This document shows, piece after piece, positions 3 to 32,000 of a stretch of DNA of 32,000 bases. Origin of the DNA: Candidatus Saccharimonadota bacterium (GTDB lineage: Bacteria; Patescibacteriota; Saccharimonadia; Saccharimonadales; Saccharimonadaceae); contig NZ_CP045921.1 in NCBI RefSeq assembly GCF_025273655.1, forward strand, positions 750,001 through 782,000. Direction: 5' to 3'. Below the pieces are notes generated by a model. The model was given only the letters and a program-made list of their open reading frames with translations, made no database searches and had not been told where the DNA came from. A program made the translations under genes and the position numbers. Numbering within the stretch: position 1 is the stretch's first letter; every line of letters begins with the position of its first letter.

Positions 3-1508
3 ATGCAGCATGTGATTGATTACGCTATCGACCCGAAAAACGATATTGACGTTATCCTTGTCAAATCCATCGACCGTTTCACCCGCGCTGGTGCGATGGT
101 GTACGAGCAGCTCAAAAAACAGCTCGAACCCCGTGGTGTCCATCTTGAAGACATGTACGGCGTGATTAGTAATGCAAAGATCAACACGCTAGAGCATCTC
201 GGTATGGAGTATAAGTGGAGCGTTACCACACCGTCACGTAAAACAGAGTTACTTGAGGCAGAACGTGCCAAAGACGAGGTACGCGATATTCTAACGCGCA
301 TGATTGGCTCGGAAATCCGCTACACACAGATCGGCTACTGGTCACGTGCAGCGCTATACGGATATGAAACGAGCAAGCTTGAAACCGTGAACGGTAAACG
401 AGCTATTCTTGTGCCGCAAACCGACCAAGCGCCTATTATTCGTAAGATGTACGATATGCGAGCCTCTGGCATCTACAGTGACGACCAAATAGCCGATGAA
501 ATGAACCGGCTTGGTTTTCAAACTCCAATCAAGGTAATTCGCGACAAGCTAGACCGGACTAAGATTGTGAGGCGTTCTGGCGGCAAGAAAATGACCGGCA
601 AGCTGCTGCGCGTCTATGTTGCAAAGACTATTTATGCAGGCGTGAATACTGAAAAGTGGACTGGCGATAAGCCGGTGCTATGTAAGTTTGATGGTTTAGT
701 GTCTATCGAGTTATGGAATAAAGCCAATCGCGGCAAAATCAGTATTGCACTCAATCCTGATGATCCAGACCACCCAACCGTTACCCGTGCGCCTAAGCAA
801 GAGAAATTTGCAAAGAAGAACGTATATAACGAGGAGTTCCCATATCGCAAAGTGGTGCTCTGTCCTGAATGTAGCAATCCGTTGCTTGGGAGCGCTTCTC
901 GTGGCAAGTCGGGCAAATACTACCCTGCATATCACTGTAGTCACCACGGTCACTATTTCCGCGTTCCTAAAGGCGAGTTCGATGACAAGATAAATCAATT
1001 CATTGAGCGCGTTATCGTCGATCCTGCGCGTTTTGACGAGGTTCTAAAGGCCGTACAGACCGTGTGGGAGCAACGCCAAGTGCGTGTGCAGGACGAGGGT
1101 GAACTACGCGATAAGAAGCGCGAGGAGCTTGAGGCTCAGATGCGCGTTATTGTAGACAAAATGAGGCTTGTGTCATCACCGACGGCAATTAAATACATGG
1201 AGGAGGACTTAACTAAAATAGAGCAGCAAATTAACGATTTAGATGCTCGTAAAGGCGAGCTAGAAACGCAAGGAGGCGTCGATATGCCAACAATCTTGAA
1301 ATATATAGAATACTTTGTGGAACACCTCAAAGAATTGCTCATCGACCACTGTAACCCGATACTTCGAGCACGTTATTTTGGGGTATTATTCGACAAAATG
1401 CCAAGCTATGCAGAAATAGATTGTGGAACACCAGAAAATGAAAAAGTTCCAGAGGTCAACGAGCTTTTCAAGCTTGTATTGTCTGGAACGTCTTCATTGG
1501 TGCGGTGA
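3..1508 (+). CDS. Large serine recombinase, 5'-truncated by the window edge
   Basis: The frame is open from the window edge. It shows the resolvase-domain tail (VILVKSIDRFTRAG), a recombinase domain, a Zn-ribbon (CPECSNPLLG...YHCSHHGH) and a C-terminal coiled-coil. The catalytic Ser region should lie upstream of the window. The TGA stop at 1506-1508 lies inside the tRNA-Leu 3' end. Confidence 0.85.
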   Translation: MQHVIDYAIDPKNDIDVILVKSIDRFTRAGAMVYEQLKKQLEPRGVHLEDMYGVISNAKINTLEHLGMEYKWSVTTPSRKTELLEAERAKDEVRDILTRMIGSEIRYTQIGYWSRAALYGYETSKLETVNGKRAILVPQTDQAPIIRKMYDMRASGIYSDDQIADEMNRLGFQTPIKVIRDKLDRTKIVRRSGGKKMTGKLLRVYVAKTIYAGVNTEKWTGDKPVLCKFDGLVSIELWNKANRGKISIALNPDDPDHPTVTRAPKQEKFAKKNVYNEEFPYRKVVLCPECSNPLLGSASRGKSGKYYPAYHCSHHGHYFRVPKGEFDDKINQFIERVIVDPARFDEVLKAVQTVWEQRQVRVQDEGELRDKKREELEAQMRVIVDKMRLVSSPTAIKYMEEDLTKIEQQINDLDARKGELETQGGVDMPTILKYIEYFVEHLKELLIDHCNPILRARYFGVLFDKMPSYAEIDCGTPENEKVPEVNELFKLVLSGTSSLVR

Positions 1509-1585
1509 AGAGGACTTGAACCTCCACGAGCGCAATGCTCACTAGCCCCTCAAGCTAGCGCGTCTACCAATTCCGCCACCACCGC
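1498..1585 (-). tRNA. tRNA-Leu (anticodon GAG), type II with long variable arm, CCA encoded
   Basis: I folded the reverse complement GCGGTGGTGGCGGAATTGGTAGACGCGCTAGCTTGAGGGGCTAGTGAGCATTGCGCTCGTGGAGGTTCAAGTCCTCTTCACCGCACCA by hand. It gives a 7-bp acceptor stem, a 3-bp D stem, anticodon stem CTAGC/GCTAG with loop TTGAGGG (GAG, G37), variable arm GAGC-ATTGC-GCTC, and a T arm GGAGG-TTCAAGT-CCTCT. Confidence 0.9.
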
Positions 1586-18449: not shown

Positions 18450-18599
18450 CGCCCTTTTCTGCTTGCAGGCTTAAAAACACTATGACATAATAAAATTCAC
18501 TATGATTCCACTGGAATCCTCTACTCACACATGTTCGGATGAGTCGAACCGCTAGTGACATATCACTTTTTCATTTACAATTAACTACGGGAGGTTCGC

Positions 18600-20381
18600 T
18601 TGAAACTTTTTAGCAGAACAAACAGCAGCACAACTAAAAAAACGATTAATATATACAAGGAAGAGCTCAAAGAAGATAAAAAGCAATTCATCATTGCGAC
18701 AATTCTTGTGCCCATGCAGCATCTGCTCTACGTTGTACTGCTCCCATTGATCATCAGCTTCTTCACACAGTCGCTAATCACCAGCTCGCATAATTTCACT
18801 ACACCACTGCTTCTCATAGGTTTTATGGCACTTATATCACTCATGGCAATTATCGTAGGACACTTCGGCTACCTTGCTCTTTTCAAACATGAGGAAAGTA
18901 TGACCACAAAGCTCACTGAGCGCGCGCTCACTGGCCTACTTCGCCATAGCCACAGTTTCTTCGCAAACAACAAAGTCGGCGCGTTAGCCGGTGACGTCAA
19001 CACGTTCAGCCGTTCGTACATGTCAATATTTGACACTATTGCCCTACAAGCGACAAGTATTGTTGTCAACTATACCGCTAGCCTCATCATTGTCGCATTC
19101 ATCGCACCGATTATGTTGCCTGCGCTCATCTTGTTAACCGGCTTCATCATCTACGACGCGCTTCGTTCGTACAGTGCGCGTGCTGAGTATCGCACTGAGC
19201 GCAAAGAGCTTCAGTCAAAACTTTTTGGTAATTTCGCCGATATACTCGGAAATCAAACGCTTGTGCGCATGTTCGGCACAAGTCGCCAAGAGATAAAAAA
19301 CACTGTCGCACAACGCCGTCATATAGAATCAATTGCCAATCAAGAAATCGATATACTCCAGCGCGGTGCCGAGACTCGCATGGGTGTACTGTTTTCGTTT
19401 CAGATTCTGACACTTCTACTATGTCTAGTCCTGATCACACGTGATGCACTCTCTATTGCGGCGCTGATATTTATCATCACCTATCTCGGACGCGTTACGG
19501 GCTCACTTTTTGCTATTAATGGCATTATAAGAGGGCTCGAACAGGCATTTCTCGACGCAGCGAAAGTTACGGAGATTCTCGACCAGCCGCCAGAAATAGT
19601 TGATCAACCACATGCCAAAAAACTTGAAGTGTCGCATGGCAATATCTCACTGAACGATGTCTCATTCACCTACCAAGATGCCAAAGATAGACCCGTGTTC
19701 AAACGTGTACAGTTGGACATACCTGCTGGTCAAAGTGTCGGACTTGTCGGCAAGAGTGGTGGGGGTAAATCAACCCTCACGCACCTGCTTCTCAGATATA
19801 TGGATATCGGCTCTGGCGAGATATCCATAGATGGACATAATATCGCTACAGTCACGCAAGATAGTCTGCGCTCACACATCGCTTATGTCCCTCAAGATCC
19901 CTATCTGTTTCATCGTAGCCTTTCCGAAAACATCGCTTACGGCAAACCAGACGCCACCGAGCCAGAGATTCGTGCAGCAGCAGAGAAGGCTCACGCAGTC
20001 GAGTTCATCGATAATTTACCGCAAGGACTTGATACAATCGTAGGCGAGCGTGGCGTCAAACTAAGTGGCGGGCAGCGGCAGCGCATCGCTATTGCTCGCG
20101 CAATACTCAAAGACGCGCCAATCCTCGTACTCGACGAAGCAACATCTGCGCTAGACTCGGAGAGCGAAAAGCTCATCCAGGAATCACTCGAAACGCTCAT
20201 GCGTGGTCGAACTAGCATAGTGATCGCTCATCGACTCTCCACCATCGCCAAACTCGATCGCATCATCGTGCTTGAACAAGGCAAAATTATCGAAGATGGA
20301 ACACATACTGAACTCCTGAATAAGAGGGGTATCTATGCCAAGCTCTGGAAACACCAAAGCGGCGGCTTTATCGAAGAGTAA
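18600..20381 (+). CDS. ABC transporter permease/ATP-binding protein (type I exporter, MsbA-like half transporter)
   Basis: It has six N-terminal TM helices, Walker A (GKSGGGKST), the signature LSGGQRQR, and Walker B (ILVLDEATSALD). It has a TTG start with GGGAGG 5 nt upstream. Confidence 0.9.
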   Translation: MKLFSRTNSSTTKKTINIYKEELKEDKKQFIIATILVPMQHLLYVVLLPLIISFFTQSLITSSHNFTTPLLLIGFMALISLMAIIVGHFGYLALFKHEESMTTKLTERALTGLLRHSHSFFANNKVGALAGDVNTFSRSYMSIFDTIALQATSIVVNYTASLIIVAFIAPIMLPALILLTGFIIYDALRSYSARAEYRTERKELQSKLFGNFADILGNQTLVRMFGTSRQEIKNTVAQRRHIESIANQEIDILQRGAETRMGVLFSFQILTLLLCLVLITRDALSIAALIFIITYLGRVTGSLFAINGIIRGLEQAFLDAAKVTEILDQPPEIVDQPHAKKLEVSHGNISLNDVSFTYQDAKDRPVFKRVQLDIPAGQSVGLVGKSGGGKSTLTHLLLRYMDIGSGEISIDGHNIATVTQDSLRSHIAYVPQDPYLFHRSLSENIAYGKPDATEPEIRAAAEKAHAVEFIDNLPQGLDTIVGERGVKLSGGQRQRIAIARAILKDAPILVLDEATSALDSESEKLIQESLETLMRGRTSIVIAHRLSTIAKLDRIIVLEQGKIIEDGTHTELLNKRGIYAKLWKHQSGGFIEE

Positions 20382-27605: not shown

Positions 27606-29025
27606 TATCCGGCTCGGCTGGCTCTGGCATGATCGATTCAAACCATAGTTTGAGCTCGGTGAGCACGAACTGCTGATGATCGGTCAACTCAGCAGCAGCG
27701 ACTTTCTGCATATCCTGCATGAACTGCGGCGCTTTTGCCTGCAGATGTGCGGCTCGCCACGTTTCGTAACTCGCCAACTCCTCCGGTGTCGACTGCCGCG
27801 GAAAATTACGAGCTTTGTAGCGAGGGAAGAGCGCGGACAGGCGCGCATCATCGAACTCTGGTTTGTAGAGTTTGAGATCTTTCATGTCCGTATTGCGCAG
27901 CACTTCACTACGGAGTTTGTCACGGTCGCTTATGAAGCCATCGTACAGTTGCCCCTCTGCATCAGATATCGGTGGCCAGTCGGGCTTCTTCATAAGTACG
28001 TTCGCCACTCGCCCGGCGAATTCAGGATGCGAGAGGAGTAGTGCACGATGTTTTTCTATTGTCGCTTGGTTGAGTTGTAGCTTGGCCCAGCCGTCTTCTT
28101 GACTTAGCACGCCGAGGGGTGCCACTGCTGGCGCACGGTTGTATTGCAGCTTCTTTACAGGCAGCTTCCGATAGTCATCACCGCGATCGGCGTATGGAGT
28201 AAACAGAATATCGGCCAACTCTTTCTCGCTCTTACTGGTCCAATCCGTCGGATCGTAACGTAGATCATACACAAACACATTGCCATAATCTGCCGCGGCG
28301 AGTGGAAGCGCTACGGTCGTCTTATCGTGGTCGGCATCATAGCGACCCGAGCTGTAGACAAACGGCTGCTTGTCGTCGAGATTTACCAATTTCTGAATCT
28401 CTTTCTTGTTACGAAGTTTGAGAAGATACTGGAAAAGTTGCGGCTGCTGCGCGGCGATCAGTTTCGTCACGCCGATCAGTGCTACCACATCGCTTAGTGC
28501 ATCGTGCGCTTTCTCATGCGCTAGCCCGTTTTCTGCGCTCAGAAGCTCGAGCTTATTAACAGCTTTGCCGTCAACTGTCGGCCATTTGATACCATCTGGT
28601 CGCAGTGCCCGCGTCATGCGCACCACGTCGAGCATATCCCAGCGCGAACGACCGTCTTTCCAGGTCCATTCGTACGGATCGTAATAATTTCGCCACAAAA
28701 ACGCACGCATAAACTCATCGTCGAAACGGATACTGTTGTAACCCAGCATGATAGTGTCCGGCGTAGCGATCTCCTCCATGAAGATCTTGGCAAACTGTGC
28801 CTCGGTATAGCCGTCTGCCACCGTTTCCTGTGGCGTCACACCTGTCACCATGAGTGCATACGGACTTGGCAGTGTATCGTCGTTTAGCGCTACCAGCAGA
28901 TTGTACGACTCGCCTATTGGGTTGAAATTCATGTCAGTGCGCTGCCCGGCGAACTGCATGATCCGGTCTTCGCGCGGGTTGAGGCCGGTCGTCTCGAGGT
29001 CGTAAAAGAAGAAAGTTTGTGCCAT
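27592..29025 (-). CDS. sbcB: Exodeoxyribonuclease I
   Basis: It has a DEDDh exonuclease N-terminus (FFFYDLETTGLNPREDRIMQFAG, ...HDALSDV) and ExoI SH3-like/C-terminal regions. At 477 aa the length is typical. Confidence 0.85.
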   Translation of the reverse strand: MAQTFFFYDLETTGLNPREDRIMQFAGQRTDMNFNPIGESYNLLVALNDDTLPSPYALMVTGVTPQETVADGYTEAQFAKIFMEEIATPDTIMLGYNSIRFDDEFMRAFLWRNYYDPYEWTWKDGRSRWDMLDVVRMTRALRPDGIKWPTVDGKAVNKLELLSAENGLAHEKAHDALSDVVALIGVTKLIAAQQPQLFQYLLKLRNKKEIQKLVNLDDKQPFVYSSGRYDADHDKTTVALPLAAADYGNVFVYDLRYDPTDWTSKSEKELADILFTPYADRGDDYRKLPVKKLQYNRAPAVAPLGVLSQEDGWAKLQLNQATIEKHRALLLSHPEFAGRVANVLMKKPDWPPISDAEGQLYDGFISDRDKLRSEVLRNTDMKDLKLYKPEFDDARLSALFPRYKARNFPRQSTPEELASYETWRAAHLQAKAPQFMQDMQKVAAAELTDHQQFVLTELKLWFESIMPEPAEPDTSEE

Positions 29026-29034
29026 CTATGTACT

Positions 29035-29040
29035 ACTATA
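29035..29040 (-). promoter_or_regulatory. -10 box TATAGT, 9 nt upstream of the sbcB ATG
   Basis: The minus strand reads gtgTATAGTagtacatagATG. Confidence 0.4.
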
Positions 29041-29097
29041 CACGATCCCTCTGTCATTCTTGCTTCGATCCAGAGTAACAGATGGAGACTTTTGCCC

Positions 29098-29129
29098 AAA
29101 AAAGCGAAGAGTCCTGCTAGGCAGGACTC
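29098..29129 (-). terminator. Rho-independent terminator closing the GC-rich unit
   Basis: The minus strand reads gagtcctgc-cta-gcaggactc followed by ttcgctttttt. It lies just upstream of the sbcB promoter. Confidence 0.6.
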
Positions 29130-29295
29130 GTATGTGCGGATGGTTTAGATACATCGGTCGTGGCCCGCAGGAGGCGCAGCTAAATCAATCGATATACATC
29201 GAGATTACTGCAGCACTCACTGCGGACCGCACGTGTTCCGGAATCAACCTGCTCGCAATGCAGGGAGCCGTAGAACACAAAATACAAAGTTGGGT

Positions 29296-29348
29296 GGCCA
29301 CCCAGGACGATGAGACGATCGATTGTCTCCGGCGCGTCCTGGGTGGCC
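29296..29348. repeat. 14-bp perfect inverted repeat (ggccacccaggacg / cgtcctgggtggcc), 25-nt spacer with a nested 5-bp stem
   Basis: The arms are 29296-29309 and 29335-29348. The spacer contains gagac-gatcgatt-gtctc. The left arm is part of the palindrome tgggtggccaccca. Confidence 0.8.
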
Positions 29349-29563
29349 CGGTGTTCCCTACGATGGCAAAGCTGATGCTCTACCTGGGCGGCGACCGGAT
29401 AGCCACTTGTACTCCTTCCGAAAAAATCATTCGACAGAGTTCCTGGCGGACGTCAGGAAATCGACAGGTGTCCGCTGTAGCATGAACCACCGGGGCTCAT
29501 CGCGGATGCGGTGCATCCAAATCTCCTTTCAGTAAACTTCGGGCACGCGGCACCGGCTGATGG

Positions 29564-29731
29564 TCAGGACTTGGAACTGATTCCGACGTCGGGGACGCCG
29601 CCGATCGCGGTGCCGGACAGGTAGCCGCTGGTGAGAACGCCGGAGGTGACGAGGGGCTCGAAGCCGGTCTGGTTGACCTTGGCGATTTCGGGACTCTTCT
29701 TCAGGGAGATGGTGGAACCGGAGGGGGCCAT
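29564..29731 (-). CDS. Candidate 55-aa Gly/Ser/Thr-rich small protein, no family recognised
   Basis: The product is MAPSGSTISLKKSPEIAKVNQTGFEPLVTSGVLTSGYLSGTAIGGVPDVGISSKS. An SD (aggag) lies 5 nt upstream of the ATG. 48 of 54 internal codons end in G/C. Confidence 0.45.
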   Translation of the reverse strand: MAPSGSTISLKKSPEIAKVNQTGFEPLVTSGVLTSGYLSGTAIGGVPDVGISSKS

Positions 29732-29778
29732 GATGGCTCCTGTTCTGCGCCGAAGCACATTGTTGGGTACCAGACTGG

Positions 29779-29832
29779 ATTGTGTCGGGCTTCACACTCA
29801 CCCACTTAGATGACCACAAAGCCCGACACAAT
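29779..29832. repeat. 14-bp perfect inverted repeat (attgtgtcgggctt / aagcccgacacaat), 26-nt spacer, in the sORF leader
   Basis: The arms are 29779-29792 and 29819-29832. A TAGAAT hexamer (minus strand) overlaps the promoter-proximal arm by 2 nt. Confidence 0.8.
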
Positions 29833-29914
29833 TCTACAAACTTGTATGAAGTATCTAAATTGTCAACGTACATGTACCAAAGGAAGTATGCACCTCAACT
29901 TTAGCATTGTATAC

Positions 29915-29943
29915 ATATTAGCATATTTTGTATTTTTTGTCAA
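29915..29943 (-). promoter_or_regulatory. Near-consensus sigma70 promoter: TTGACA - 17 nt (ending TGc) - TAATAT
   Basis: The minus strand reads ttgaca aaaaatacaaaatatgc taatat. It starts 10 nt after the obg stop and fires toward the GC-rich unit. Confidence 0.55.
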
Positions 29944-29952
29944 TTATATTTC

Positions 29953-31269
<1,317 letters not shown>

Positions 31270-31332: not shown

Positions 31333-32000
31333 CTAGTGAATAAAGTTGTAGTTACTAGCTTGGCTCATAGGAATAGTACGACTCGAGACAACATTGAAGC
31401 CTGCGTAATTCATCTCACTGATCGTAAATGAATCTCCATTGATTGTTTCTACAATTGCAACGTGTCCGTAACCAGCATAGCCACCACCATTTTGCAGGAT
31501 TGCGCCCGGTGCAGGTGTCTTGTTCACAGTGAAGCCTGCCGCCTGTGCATTGATAGCCCAGGTCGAAGCGTTACCCCAGAAGCTACCGATAGGGCGACCC
31601 AGTTGAGCACGGCGCTCATATGCGTACCATGTACAGTTACCAAATGCATAACGGTTGCCGACAGATGCAGACGCGTTTGCAAGTCCCGCCGTGCTACTGA
31701 ATGAGCCTGTACTTTGGCCATTCGACATTTGTGTAGAAGCGGCCGCTGGAGTCGACGCAGGGTCGGCTGGCTTTTGGCCGCCAGGCACGATGAGTTGCAT
31801 ATTGCCATGAATTCCATTTACCTCGAGATCATTGAAGCTAACAATACGCTCAGGCTGCGTCTTCATCTGATCGGCAATCGATTGAACCGAATCTCCGTCT
31901 TTCGTAGTATAGAGCACGCCATCGACCGGCAAGATGACAACATCTCTTCCGGCTTCAACCGCGTCCGACTGAAGGTTATTTGCCCATTTAACAGTCTGCG
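31333..32000 (-). CDS. LysM-like + CHAP (NlpC/P60 superfamily) peptidoglycan hydrolase, 5'-truncated by the window edge
   Basis: It has a CHAP domain (FGNCTWYAYERR...GYGHVAIVE) preceded by LysM-like segments (YTTKDGDSVQSIADQM...). The reading frame stays open upstream of the track's TTG to position 32000. Confidence 0.8.
   Translation of the reverse strand, partial: QTVKWANNLQSDAVEAGRDVVILPVDGVLYTTKDGDSVQSIADQMKTQPERIVSFNDLEVNGIHGNMQLIVPGGQKPADPASTPAAASTQMSNGQSTGSFSSTAGLANASASVGNRYAFGNCTWYAYERRAQLGRPIGSFWGNASTWAINAQAAGFTVNKTPAPGAILQNGGGYAGYGHVAIVETINGDSFTISEMNYAGFNVVSSRTIPMSQASNYNFIH

What the first reader, a model, noticed from the sequence alone, without database searches (positions are those of the whole stretch)
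29098..29952. Self-contained, compositionally foreign transcription unit between obg and sbcB
The 927-nt gap between obg (stop at 29953) and sbcB (start at 29025) is far longer than any other co-directional gap in this window, which are typically 0-40 nt.

Reading the minus strand, the gap contains in order:
1. a near-consensus promoter (TTGACA-17-TAATAT with TGn, 29943-29915);
2. a leader carrying a 14-bp perfect hairpin;
3. a 55-aa sORF with an AGGAG SD;
4. about 430 nt with no credible ORF but a second 14-bp perfect hairpin;
5. a dedicated terminator (29129-29098) just before sbcB's own -10 box.

The core at about 29130-29830 is visibly more G+C-rich than the flanking genes and the AT-rich promoter segment. 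Together these suggest either an acquired cassette or a structured-RNA/sORF locus that ordinary gene finders would leave blank. The donor may be a high-GC organism such as an actinobacterium.
Basis: partly seen in the sequence, partly recalled or inferred. Interest (0 to 1): 0.8.

Follow-up and report, generated by a model that had tools for sequence, protein, structure and literature searches.

The report
Structured RNA carrying a swappable mini-gene
Between two housekeeping genes of an ultra-small parasitic bacterium lies a separately transcribed, tightly folded RNA of about 0.8 kb that related species share, but its embedded 55-codon mini-gene is replaced by unrelated mini-genes in those relatives and uses codons unlike the rest of the genome, so it looks like an undescribed native RNA/small-protein module rather than DNA taken from the host.

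Summary
The window is Candidatus Mycosynbacter amalyticus (Saccharibacteria). The 927-nt obg–sbcB gap carries a near-consensus extended -10 promoter, two perfect 14-bp hairpins, an SD-led 55-codon ORF and a terminator. Its core has the most deviant composition in the 32 kb.

The "foreign cassette" reading is not supported.
- The promoter, 5' leader, both hairpins, the 3' domain and the terminator are homologous to the same junction in related species, with compensatory base changes.
- The module occurs in several deep Saccharibacteria lineages and is absent from others, which suggests old presence with repeated loss.
- A leader box (29859-29851) pairs with a segment just before the terminator (29152-29144). 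Twelve units in ten loci have this 5'–3' helix with different, co-varying sequences, so one RNA of about 810 nt is made.

The small ORF is the variable part. Its peptides are unrelated between lineages. Between two genomes that are 90-94% identical it is replaced almost exactly from start to stop codon. GC3 is 0.82-0.95 against about 0.5 genome-wide. No homologue was found anywhere.

The opposite-strand 117-aa ORF overlies conserved RNA structure and is probably spurious. No Rfam, Pfam, phage or plasmid match exists. Function is unknown. The closest analogues are 5'–3'-closed small-ORF mRNAs (hok, aapA) and dual-function RNAs.

The parts
29915..29943 (-). Promoter: -35 TTGACA (29943-29938), 17-nt spacer, TG (29923-29922), -10 TAATAT (29920-29915). 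The predicted transcription start is near 29908.
   Evidence: Promoter scan and whole-window scan. TTGAC, TG and TAnnAT are invariant in a 12-sequence alignment of related units.
29875..29906 (-). 5'-terminal leader hairpin P1.
   Evidence: RNAalifold consensus of four species. Most pairs are kept, with one compensatory change.
29848..29866 (-). Conserved leader box TTGACAATTTAGATAC. Positions 29859-29851 (TTTAGATAC), extending to 29848, form the 5' strand of the long-range closing helix.
   Evidence: The box is conserved in 12 units. It is complementary to 29152-29144. The repeat finder reported the same pair independently as I5.
29779..29832 (-). Hairpin 1 (P3): 14-bp perfect stem with a 26-nt loop, upstream of the small ORF.
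   Evidence: I3. Conserved in L005, L006 and L084 with two compensatory pairs. Covariance model R1 matches at 169-182 bits.
29564..29741 (-). SD AGGAG (29741-29737) plus the 55-codon small ORF (ATG 29731, stop 29566-29564; annotated as GII36_04330). This is the variable, C-rich part, with GC3 0.89.
   Evidence: Relatives carry unrelated small ORFs at the same offset, with GC3 0.82-0.95.
29427..29530 (-). Lineage-specific spacer holding a possible second mini-ORF (SD AAAGGAGA, ATG 29516, 29 codons, GC3 0.76). Its status is uncertain.
   Evidence: Frame plots show a phase-shifted GC periodicity continuing to about 29440. No counterpart exists in relatives.
29296..29348 (-). Hairpin 2: 14-bp perfect stem enclosing a 5-bp inner stem.
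   Evidence: I2. Homologous to a 17-bp hairpin in L084 and L006, with four compensatory pairs. Covariance model R2 scores 66.7 bits.
29274..29304 (-). Small hairpin TGGGTGGCCACCCA (29304-29291), which overlaps the 3' arm of hairpin 2, followed by a U-rich tract (29290-29274). It could be an internal attenuator or pause site.
   Evidence: The terminator scan flagged it. It aligns with the T-run after the L084/L006 hairpin. A functional role is inferred only.
29135..29248 (-). Structured 3' domain with a long-range stem. It contains the 3' strand of the closing helix, GTATCTAAA (29152-29144).
   Evidence: Homologous to L084 and L006, with conserved and compensatory pairs. Closing helix.
29098..29129 (-). 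Intrinsic terminator: 9-bp stem, 3-nt loop, then TTCGCTTTTTT.
   Evidence: In 11 of the 12 related units, a terminator follows the closing-helix partner within about 5-25 nt.
29132..29485 (+). 117-aa ORF called by gene finders on the opposite strand. It is most likely not a gene.
   Evidence: It overlies the conserved RNA elements. No equivalent ORF exists in L084 or L006. No + strand promoter was found. Its AGGA lies inside the terminator stem. GC2 is 0.49 and the codon score is below all 18 real genes. The only homologue is from the same species.
29023..29042 (-). sbcB's own promoter-like TG-TATAGT (29042-29035) and its ATG (29025-23). This marks the downstream boundary and is not part of the unit.
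   Evidence: The motif is conserved 6-9 nt before the sbcB ATG across Saccharibacteria, including genomes with an empty junction.

Best explanation
The gap encodes one native RNA of about 810 nt, old within Saccharibacteria, that is both highly structured and carries a translated small ORF.

Proposed mechanism:
1. A strong constitutive promoter starts transcription near 29908.
2. The RNA forms a 5'-terminal hairpin and then a long hairpin (P3).
3. After the 3' end is made, the leader box (29859-29851) pairs with a segment 14 nt upstream of the terminator hairpin (29152-29144).
4. Both ends are then tucked into a closed, nuclease-resistant fold.
5. The SD-led small ORF sits in the region between hairpin 1 and hairpin 2.

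The conserved, selected parts are RNA: leader, hairpins, closing helix and terminator. The small ORF is a fast-turnover insert. It is translated, and its peptide sequence is lineage-specific. What is kept is its position, its SD and start codon, and an extreme preference for C/G-ending codons that makes this stretch C-rich.

The most likely function is a stabilised expression and regulatory module for a small lineage-specific peptide, possibly with a second role for the RNA itself. It works like the 5'-3'-closed mRNAs of small ORFs (hok, aapA) or like dual-function RNAs such as RNAIII.

Shown here: the unit boundaries, conservation, helices with covariation, coding-type periodicity, ORF replacement, and absence of homologues.

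Inferred only: translation, stabilisation by closure, and any peptide or regulatory function.
For: Organism.

Junction survey:
- obg-sbcB adjacency is conserved. The gap is at most 100 nt in 49 of 73 genome loci and 57 of 74 metagenome loci, and 0.3-4.8 kb in the rest.

Homology and structure:
- Leader homology: blastn 77-78%, nhmmer E 1e-33 to 1e-48 in L005, L006 and L084, with weaker hits in L109, L098, L075, L141, L011, L079 and L058.
- Compensatory pairs in hairpin 1, hairpin 2 (four pairs) and the 3' domain.
- 5'-3' helix: perfect Watson-Crick runs of 8-16 nt in 12 of 12 units, with different sequences. Cross-locus controls give mean 6.2 and maximum 9. Shuffle P is at most 0.05 in each unit and below 0.001 in six. 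In 11 of 12 units the partner lies 5-25 nt before the terminator. The repeat finder found the same pair independently.
- In L098 versus L109, the leader and a 200-nt 3' block are about 90-95% identical (by eye from the alignment) while sbcB is 77%.

Independence and age:
- sbcB has its own conserved promoter.
- A tree of Obg+SbcB places units in several deep lineages, with losses in L004, L007, L080 and the oral clade.

The small ORF:
- It has the highest GC3 (0.89) of 240 ORFs in the window.
- Eight lineages have SD-led small ORFs of 23-55 codons at the same offset. Third positions are C 56%, G 32%, T 8%, A 4%.
- The ribosomal protein L25 gene in the window has GC3 0.52.
- L006 and L084 are 90-94% identical, yet 153 versus 130 nt between the SD/start codon and about 4 codons before the stop do not align.
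Against: - No expression data exist for this locus.
- The closing helix in the window clade is only 8-9 bp (shuffle P 0.01-0.05). The case rests on the family as a whole.
- Four of about 14 units (L079, L075, L109b, L036) lack a long GC3-rich ORF and carry only 7-15-codon mini-ORFs. A sizeable peptide is therefore not universal.
- The GC3 bias has no demonstrated cause.
- Long-range sequestration of the SD, expected if the module worked like hok or aapA, was no better than the control.
- A strain about 99% identical (L003) has a 1-nt deletion inside the 55-codon ORF. It lies 24 nt from a contig end, so it may be an assembly error.
- ORF replacement between near-identical genomes was seen cleanly in only one pair, and partly in a second.
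Confidence: 0.6

Rival explanations
1. Foreign insert: the body of the small ORF, with or without its spacer (about 29361-29731), is a fragment recently captured from a high-GC organism. The actinobacterial host is the obvious candidate. The fragment landed in a pre-existing native expression scaffold.
For: - GC3 is 0.89 and codon choices resemble those of Actinobacteria (my own knowledge of their usage), unlike any of the 18 genes in the window.
- The periodic signal continues in a shifted frame after the stop codon, as a decaying gene fragment would.
- Replacement between the near-identical genomes L006 and L084 is abrupt.
- The cultured host is Gordonia amarae (abstracts listed).
- This is the most deviant composition in the window.
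Against: - No homologue of the 55-aa peptide, of nine concatenated sequences (seven relatives' small-ORF peptides, the window's 29-aa ORF and an opposite-strand translation of the ORF55 region), or of the DNA was found in any collection searched.
- The replaced segment begins at the SD/start codon and ends about 4 codons before the stop, which random capture does not predict.
- Eight independent lineages all show the same bias.
- GC1 is not above GC2, which is atypical of real high-GC genes.
- No flanking repeats or mobility genes are present.
Confidence: 0.12
2. Purely non-coding large RNA: the conserved scaffold is the functional molecule. The small ORF is not translated, or only incidentally, and the C-rich stretch serves as a single-stranded platform, for example for Rho or for pairing with G-rich targets.
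For: - Only RNA elements are conserved, and the peptides are unrelated.
- Some units have only mini-ORFs.
- The ORF region is C-rich and G-poor: C 0.41, G 0.24.
- A possible frameshift exists in a 99%-identical strain.
Against: - Strong three-base periodicity (GC3 0.88 against GC1 0.49 and GC2 0.54, pooled over 321 codons) is a coding signature.
- An SD and ATG are kept at the same offset in most units.
- The open frames are far longer than expected by chance.
Confidence: 0.13
3. Type I toxin-antitoxin-like locus: the small ORF is a toxic peptide whose mRNA is kept inert by the 5'-3' interaction, and an undetected RNA antitoxin exists.
For: - The locus has a 5'-3' long-distance interaction, a long structured 5' UTR, a strong promoter and a small ORF under 60 aa.
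- It is intergenic, patchily distributed and tandemly duplicated in L006 and L109.
- The small ORFs of L005 and of the second L006 unit are hydrophobic.
- This mRNA logic is described for hok and aapA (PMC6733600).
Against: - The window peptide and most others are hydrophilic. The window peptide has mean hydropathy 0.16 and a maximum 15-residue window of 1.09.
- No antisense promoter was found in the window, L006 or L084.
- No SD/anti-SD long-range pairing rises above the control.
- The units are 0.55-0.8 kb, longer than known toxin mRNAs.
- The peptide is not conserved even within a genus.
Confidence: 0.08
4. The + strand 117-aa ORF (29132-29485) is the real gene, and the minus-strand features regulate it or are incidental.
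For: - A gene finder calls it.
- A 98%-identical copy exists in another sample.
- Its own frame scores best of the six frames.
Against: - It overlies hairpin 2, the 3' domain and the closing-helix partner. All of these are conserved as RNA in species that lack any such ORF.
- No promoter precedes it, and its start codon abuts the terminator stem.
- Its GC2 and codon score fall outside the range of all real genes.
- Its only non-self hits are tandem-repeat artefacts.
Confidence: 0.05
5. Long regulatory leader (leader-peptide attenuator) of sbcB.
For: - The unit stays next to sbcB even where obg is elsewhere (L058, L079).
- Translated mini-ORFs are followed by hairpins and U-tracts.
- The small hairpin at 29304-29291 competes with hairpin 2.
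Against: - A strong terminator lies between the unit and sbcB.
- sbcB has a conserved promoter of its own directly before its ATG, including in genomes with no unit.
- Tandem units each have their own terminator.
Confidence: 0.05

Closest known systems
hok and aapA-type type I toxin mRNAs (5'-3' long-distance interaction; PMC6733600)
   Same: Both are strongly transcribed small-ORF mRNAs with a long structured 5' UTR. The 5' region pairs with a segment next to the 3' end, and that pairing is supported by covariation. Both are intergenic, patchily distributed and tandemly duplicated.
   Different: Most peptides here are hydrophilic and unrelated to each other. No antisense antitoxin promoter was found. 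The closing helix does not sequester the SD. The RNA is two to three times longer. The ORF body is swapped between near-identical genomes and has extreme GC3.
Dual-function regulatory RNAs with an embedded small ORF (Staphylococcus RNAIII/hld, SgrS/SgrT, SR1/SR1P; from my own knowledge)
   Same: Both are multi-hairpin RNAs of several hundred nt from their own promoter and terminator, carrying a 20-55-codon ORF. RNA ends and helices are better conserved than the coding part. C-rich stretches are present.
   Different: No target pairing or regulator link is known here. There is no sequence or Rfam relationship. The ORF turnover and codon bias have no counterpart in these RNAs.
Large bacterial RNAs of unknown function in Rfam (OLE, GOLLD, ROOL, HEARO, raiA) and TM7-specific motifs (lysM-TM7, MDR-NUDIX)
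   Same: Size class, strong covariation, G+C enrichment relative to the genome, and restriction to particular lineages.
   Different: No covariance model matches, even at E up to 10. Those RNAs do not carry an SD-led ORF with coding periodicity.
Small horizontally acquired genomic islets
   Same: Atypical composition, and presence or absence at a conserved junction that also holds other cargo in other lineages.
   Different: Most of the segment is orthologous in related species. No donor, repeats or mobility genes were found.

Membership tests
Type I toxin-antitoxin (hok/sok, aapA/IsoA type) | Small hydrophobic, membrane-active toxin peptide | tested here: not met
   The 55-aa peptide has mean Kyte-Doolittle hydropathy 0.16 and a maximum 15-residue window of 1.09. 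Only 2 of 11 related small-ORF peptides are hydrophobic.
Type I toxin-antitoxin (hok/sok, aapA/IsoA type) | RNA antitoxin with its own promoter, antisense to or near the toxin mRNA | tested here: not met
   No sigma-70-like or extended -10 site lies on the + strand of the unit in the window, L006 or L084. A trans-encoded antitoxin cannot be excluded.
Type I toxin-antitoxin (hok/sok, aapA/IsoA type) | 5'-3' long-distance interaction in the full-length mRNA | tested here: met
   29859-29851 pairs with 29152-29144. The helix co-varies in 12 units.
Type I toxin-antitoxin (hok/sok, aapA/IsoA type) | SD sequestered by a distant anti-SD in the closed form | tested here: not met
   The best complementarity between the SD region and the 3' region is 5-7 nt, matching the cross-locus control (mean 6.3).
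Type I toxin-antitoxin (hok/sok, aapA/IsoA type) | Toxicity on expression | not testable with these tools
   This requires an experiment.
Any Rfam 15 RNA family (including tmRNA, 6S, RNase P, OLE, GOLLD, ROOL, HEARO) | Covariance-model match at or near the gathering score | tested here: not met
   Only chance hairpin hits (at most 28 bits, against gathering scores of 37-245) appear in the window gap and in the L098 and L084 gaps. The gathering-threshold scans of the window and of 13 relatives found nothing in the gaps. ARAGORN finds no tmRNA.
Recently acquired foreign islet (actinobacterial donor) | Atypical composition | tested here: met
   The core is at the top of the window for both GC and tetranucleotide deviation. 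GC3 of the small ORF is 0.89.
Recently acquired foreign islet (actinobacterial donor) | Segment absent from the same junction in relatives | tested here: not met
   The junction is empty in L004 and L007. However, the leader, hairpins, 3' domain and terminator are homologous in L005, L006 and L084, and the leader also in deeper lineages.
Recently acquired foreign islet (actinobacterial donor) | Detectable homologue in a donor lineage | tested here: not met
   No protein or DNA hit was found.
Recently acquired foreign islet (actinobacterial donor) | Flanking direct repeats or mobility genes | tested here: not met
   No direct repeats occur in 28900-30100. The neighbours are obg and sbcB.
Leader-peptide attenuator of the downstream gene | Downstream gene depends on read-through and has no promoter of its own | tested here: not met
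   A conserved TGnTATAnT box lies 6-9 nt before the sbcB ATG in nearly all loci, and a terminator precedes it.
Dual-function RNA (RNAIII-like) | Translated small ORF inside a conserved structured RNA | tested here: inconclusive
   The structure is conserved and the ORF shows coding periodicity and an SD. Translation is not demonstrated.
Dual-function RNA (RNAIII-like) | Base-pairing regulation of target mRNAs | not testable with these tools
   This needs the whole genome and expression data.

The most novel reading that the evidence does not exclude
The conserved RNA is a scaffold that displays an exchangeable coding cassette written in host-like (actinobacterial-type) codons. Cassettes would be swapped between strains by recombination at the conserved flanks, or captured from host DNA taken up by these naturally competent parasites. 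The product, peptide or RNA, would act in the parasite-host interaction. That would make this a programmable, fast-evolving host-interaction locus with no described counterpart.
Probability: 0.07. Interest if true: 0.95.

Novelty: new variant of a known kind. Interest (0 to 1): 0.7.

Why it matters
Saccharibacteria are obligate parasites with tiny genomes in which almost every intergenic base is accounted for. An 0.8-kb RNA module kept across deep lineages is therefore likely to matter.

- It would add an RNA family with strong covariation that is absent from Rfam.
- It shows an unusual evolutionary pattern. The RNA scaffold is conserved better than the neighbouring protein genes, while the embedded mini-gene is replaced wholesale and written in codons foreign to the genome.
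- M. amalyticus is cultivable with Gordonia amarae. The transcript, the peptide, the 5'-3' closure and any role in host interaction can therefore be tested directly.
- It warns annotators about two things. The 117-aa ORF called here is probably an artefact. High G+C in a small segment is not in itself evidence of transfer.

Tried and rejected
- Known RNA families: Rfam at gathering and permissive thresholds on the window and on relatives gave only chance hairpin hits in the gaps. ARAGORN found no tmRNA.
- Protein families: Pfam, NCBIfam, PHROGs and PADLOC gave nothing for the 55-, 117- and 29-aa ORFs, and Pfam gave nothing for relatives' ORFs. The one PHROG hit (E 0.028) was taken as chance.
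- Phages and plasmids: blastn and tblastn found no match.
- Exhaustive HMMER search with the 117-aa ORF returned three large proteins. They are tandem-repeat proteins whose repeat-summed scores inflate significance, so they were rejected.
- A concatenated query of seven relatives' small-ORF peptides, the window's 29-aa ORF and an antisense-frame translation found no hit.
- Silent cassette copies or inversion as the source of the swapped ORFs: none lies within 5 kb either side in any locus.
- Antisense promoter for an antitoxin: none in the window clade.
- Long-range SD/anti-SD pairing: not above the control.
- Flanking direct repeats: none.
- The hairpin-2 covariance model found no members outside the three sequences it was built from.
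- Translational selection as the cause of GC3: the ribosomal protein L25 gene in the window has GC3 0.52, which gives no support.
- Literature: the locus tag GII36_04330 is not mentioned in the papers searched, and the one M. amalyticus paper read (PMC11880426) contains no transcriptome data.
- Structure prediction was not run. With an alignment of one species it would not be informative.
Full report
**Identity and observation**

The 55-aa ORF in the gap is annotated as hypothetical protein GII36_04330 of Candidatus Mycosynbacter amalyticus. This organism is a cultivated Saccharibacteria parasite of the actinobacterium Gordonia amarae (abstracts listed).
- a 927-nt gap between obg and sbcB;
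- a promoter TTGACA-17-TGcTAATAT;
- two perfect 14-bp hairpins;
- an AGGAG-led 55-codon ORF;
- a terminator at 29129-29098.

The core 29130-29830 has GC 0.581, equal to the highest of 626 windows in the 32 kb. It also has the largest tetranucleotide deviation of 313 windows. The 818-nt minus-strand RNA folds far better than shuffles, with z = -7.45. Gene finders do call genes here: the 55-aa ORF, and a 117-aa ORF on the opposite strand.

**The junction in relatives**

I scanned species-representative genomes and metagenomes with SbcB and obtained 160 Saccharibacteria loci.
- obg-sbcB adjacency is conserved.
- The gap is at most 100 nt in 49 of 73 genome loci and 57 of 74 metagenome loci. Elsewhere it is 0.3-4.8 kb with varied content.
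- Among the closest relatives (about 80% SbcB identity), L004 and L007 are empty, while L005, L006 and L084 have 600-1334 nt.

**Most of the window's gap is orthologous RNA, not foreign DNA**

- The first ~210 nt (promoter, leader, hairpin 1, SD) align with L005, L006 and L084. Hairpin 1 shows compensatory pairs.
- A covariance model of the leader also detects weaker copies in L109, L058, L036 and a second unit in L006.
- nhmmer and a 12-sequence alignment extend the leader to L098, L075, L141, L011, L078 and L079.
- Hairpin 2 is homologous to a 17-bp hairpin in L084 and L006, with four compensatory pairs.
- The 3' domain is also shared.
- A tree of Obg+SbcB puts unit-bearing genomes in several deep lineages. 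Empty junctions are nested among them and also characterise the oral Nanosynbacter clade. This fits old presence with repeated loss.
- sbcB has its own conserved TGnTATAnT box 6-9 nt before its ATG in nearly all loci, preceded by a terminator wherever the gap is long. The unit is therefore self-contained.

**A co-varying 5'-3' helix**

The conserved leader box (window TTGACAATTTAGATAC) is complementary to a segment just upstream of the final terminator: TTTAGATAC (29859-29851) pairs with GTATCTAAA (29152-29144).
- All 12 units have such a pair, and the sequences differ between lineages. Examples are ACAAGTTGAGTAAG/CTTACTCAACTTGT in L098, TAACATGTCAGAGAG/CTCTCTGACATGTTA in L075 and GAAAATTCAGATA/TATCTGAATTTTC in the second L109 unit.
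- Perfect runs are 8-16 nt. Cross-locus controls give mean 6.2 and maximum 9.
- Shuffle P is at most 0.05 in every unit and below 0.001 in six.
- In 11 of 12 units the partner sits 5-25 nt before the terminator.
- The repeat finder reported the window pair independently (I5).

This is comparative evidence that one RNA spans from the leader to the terminator and is closed by end-to-end pairing. That feature is known from hok and aapA toxin mRNAs (PMC6733600) and from the closing stems of stable RNAs.

**The small ORF is the variable and compositionally odd part**

- ORF55 has GC1/2/3 = 0.51/0.55/0.89, the highest GC3 of 240 ATG-ORFs in the window. The 18 long genes have GC3 0.44-0.60, and the ribosomal protein L25 gene has 0.52.
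- Eight lineages carry SD-led ORFs of 23-55 codons at the same offset behind the leader. All have GC3 0.82-0.95, and third positions are C 56%, G 32%, T 8%, A 4%. They are rich in Ser, Gly, Thr and Pro.
- The peptides are unrelated to each other, except for L098 and L109a.
- L006 and L084 are 90-94% identical across 11 kb. Yet the stretch from the SD/start codon to about four codons before the stop codon (153 versus 130 nt) cannot be aligned.
- L098 and L109a keep the first four and last six codons but differ in the middle.
- Four units (L079, L075, L109b, L036) lack a long GC3-rich ORF and have only 7-15-codon mini-ORFs at this position; in L079 and L036 these are followed by a hairpin that holds the stop codon.
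- In the window, a weaker periodic signal continues in another frame for about 150 nt. There a 29-codon ORF with a good SD lies.
- No homologue of any of these peptides was found. The same holds for the DNA in phages and plasmids.

**The 117-aa ORF**

The 117-aa ORF (29132-29485, +) overlies hairpin 2, the 3' domain and the closing-helix partner. These are conserved as RNA in L084 and L006, which have no such ORF. Several other points count against it:
- no promoter precedes it;
- its AGGA lies in the terminator stem;
- its GC2 (0.49) and codon score fall outside the range of all real genes;
- its only homologue is from the same species;
- the three other hits are tandem-repeat artefacts.

I regard it as spurious, with about 0.9 confidence.

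**Interpretation**

The best-supported reading is a native, ancient RNA of about 810 nt. Its conserved elements are structural, and it carries a translated, rapidly replaced small ORF.
- Closure of the ends, terminal hairpins and a strong promoter suggest a very stable, abundant transcript.
- The consistent SD and start codon and the three-base periodicity suggest translation.
- The lack of peptide conservation, together with biases in both codons and amino acids towards C-rich RNA, suggests that something other than peptide sequence is under selection. That property is not identified.

Tests for type I toxin features beyond the end-to-end helix failed. Hydropathy, an antisense promoter and SD sequestration were all negative. 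The module may therefore work like such mRNAs, but it is not a member of that family.

Capture of host DNA remains possible for the ORF body only. No database support was found for it, and it does not explain why the replaced segment coincides almost exactly with the ORF.

**Limits**

- No expression data exist for this locus.
- The window-clade closing helix is short (8-9 bp).
- A clean ORF swap is seen in only one closely related pair.
- Whole genomes could not be scanned for further copies or for actinobacterial matches.

Noticed in passing
window 18499-18558 (+): An Rfam MDR-NUDIX RNA motif (66.4 bits, gathering score 54.9) lies directly upstream of an ABC-transporter-like ORF (18600-20381).
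   Followed up: no
window 3-1508 (+) and 1498-1585 (-): A large serine-recombinase-like ORF ends 11 nt inside a tRNA-Leu(GAG) gene on the other strand. This looks like the edge of an element integrated at a tRNA gene, running off the left end of the window.
   Followed up: no
L005, L006, L008, L011, L013, L063, L075, L078, L084, L109 (about 2-3.5 kb upstream of obg): The Rfam lysM-TM7 RNA (79-112 bits) lies upstream of the LysM/CHAP gene that precedes obg. In the window this position would fall just beyond base 32000.
   Followed up: partly
window 29023-29042, and the 85 nt upstream of sbcB in about 30 loci: sbcB has a conserved TGnTATAnT box only 6-9 nt before its ATG and no recognisable SD. 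This suggests a leaderless or nearly leaderless mRNA throughout Saccharibacteria.
   Followed up: partly
obg-sbcB junction in L020, L021, L026 and similar loci (971 nt), L013, L090, L014, L018, L065 and L058: The same junction holds other lineage-specific cargo with no Pfam match where tested: a 301-aa ORF in a Nanosynbacter group, a 274-aa ORF (L013) and a 166-aa ORF with GC3 0.77 (L090). L014, L018, L065 and L058 carry 4-4.8-kb inserts that were not examined. The junction is a hot spot for variable content.
   Followed up: partly
L098 3100-3310 and L109 4040-4250: A block of about 200 nt in the 3' part of the unit is roughly 93-95% identical (by eye) between two genomes whose sbcB genes are 77% identical. 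Its substitutions fall at first and second positions of the only ORF through it, so the constraint is at RNA level. It contains a conserved antisense TGGTATGAT box.
   Followed up: partly
L006 4462-5000 and L109 4278-5000: Second, diverged copies of the whole unit (own promoter, box, closing-helix partner and terminator; a small ORF only in the L006 copy) lie in tandem with the first. The module can therefore duplicate.
   Followed up: partly
L003 about 1200 (window about 29629): A strain about 99% identical has a 1-nt deletion inside the 55-codon ORF and a T-to-G change in an arm of hairpin 2. The deletion is 24 nt from the contig end and may be an assembly error.
   Followed up: partly
L079 4320-4520 and L036 4330-4370: Mini-ORFs of 8-10 codons (MRVKRLPTLA, MRIKRELVLA, MKREFMLA) each end in a stop codon placed in the loop of a CTGGC-ATAG-GCCAG hairpin. 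Two occur in tandem in L079. They look like regulatory leader peptides.
   Followed up: no
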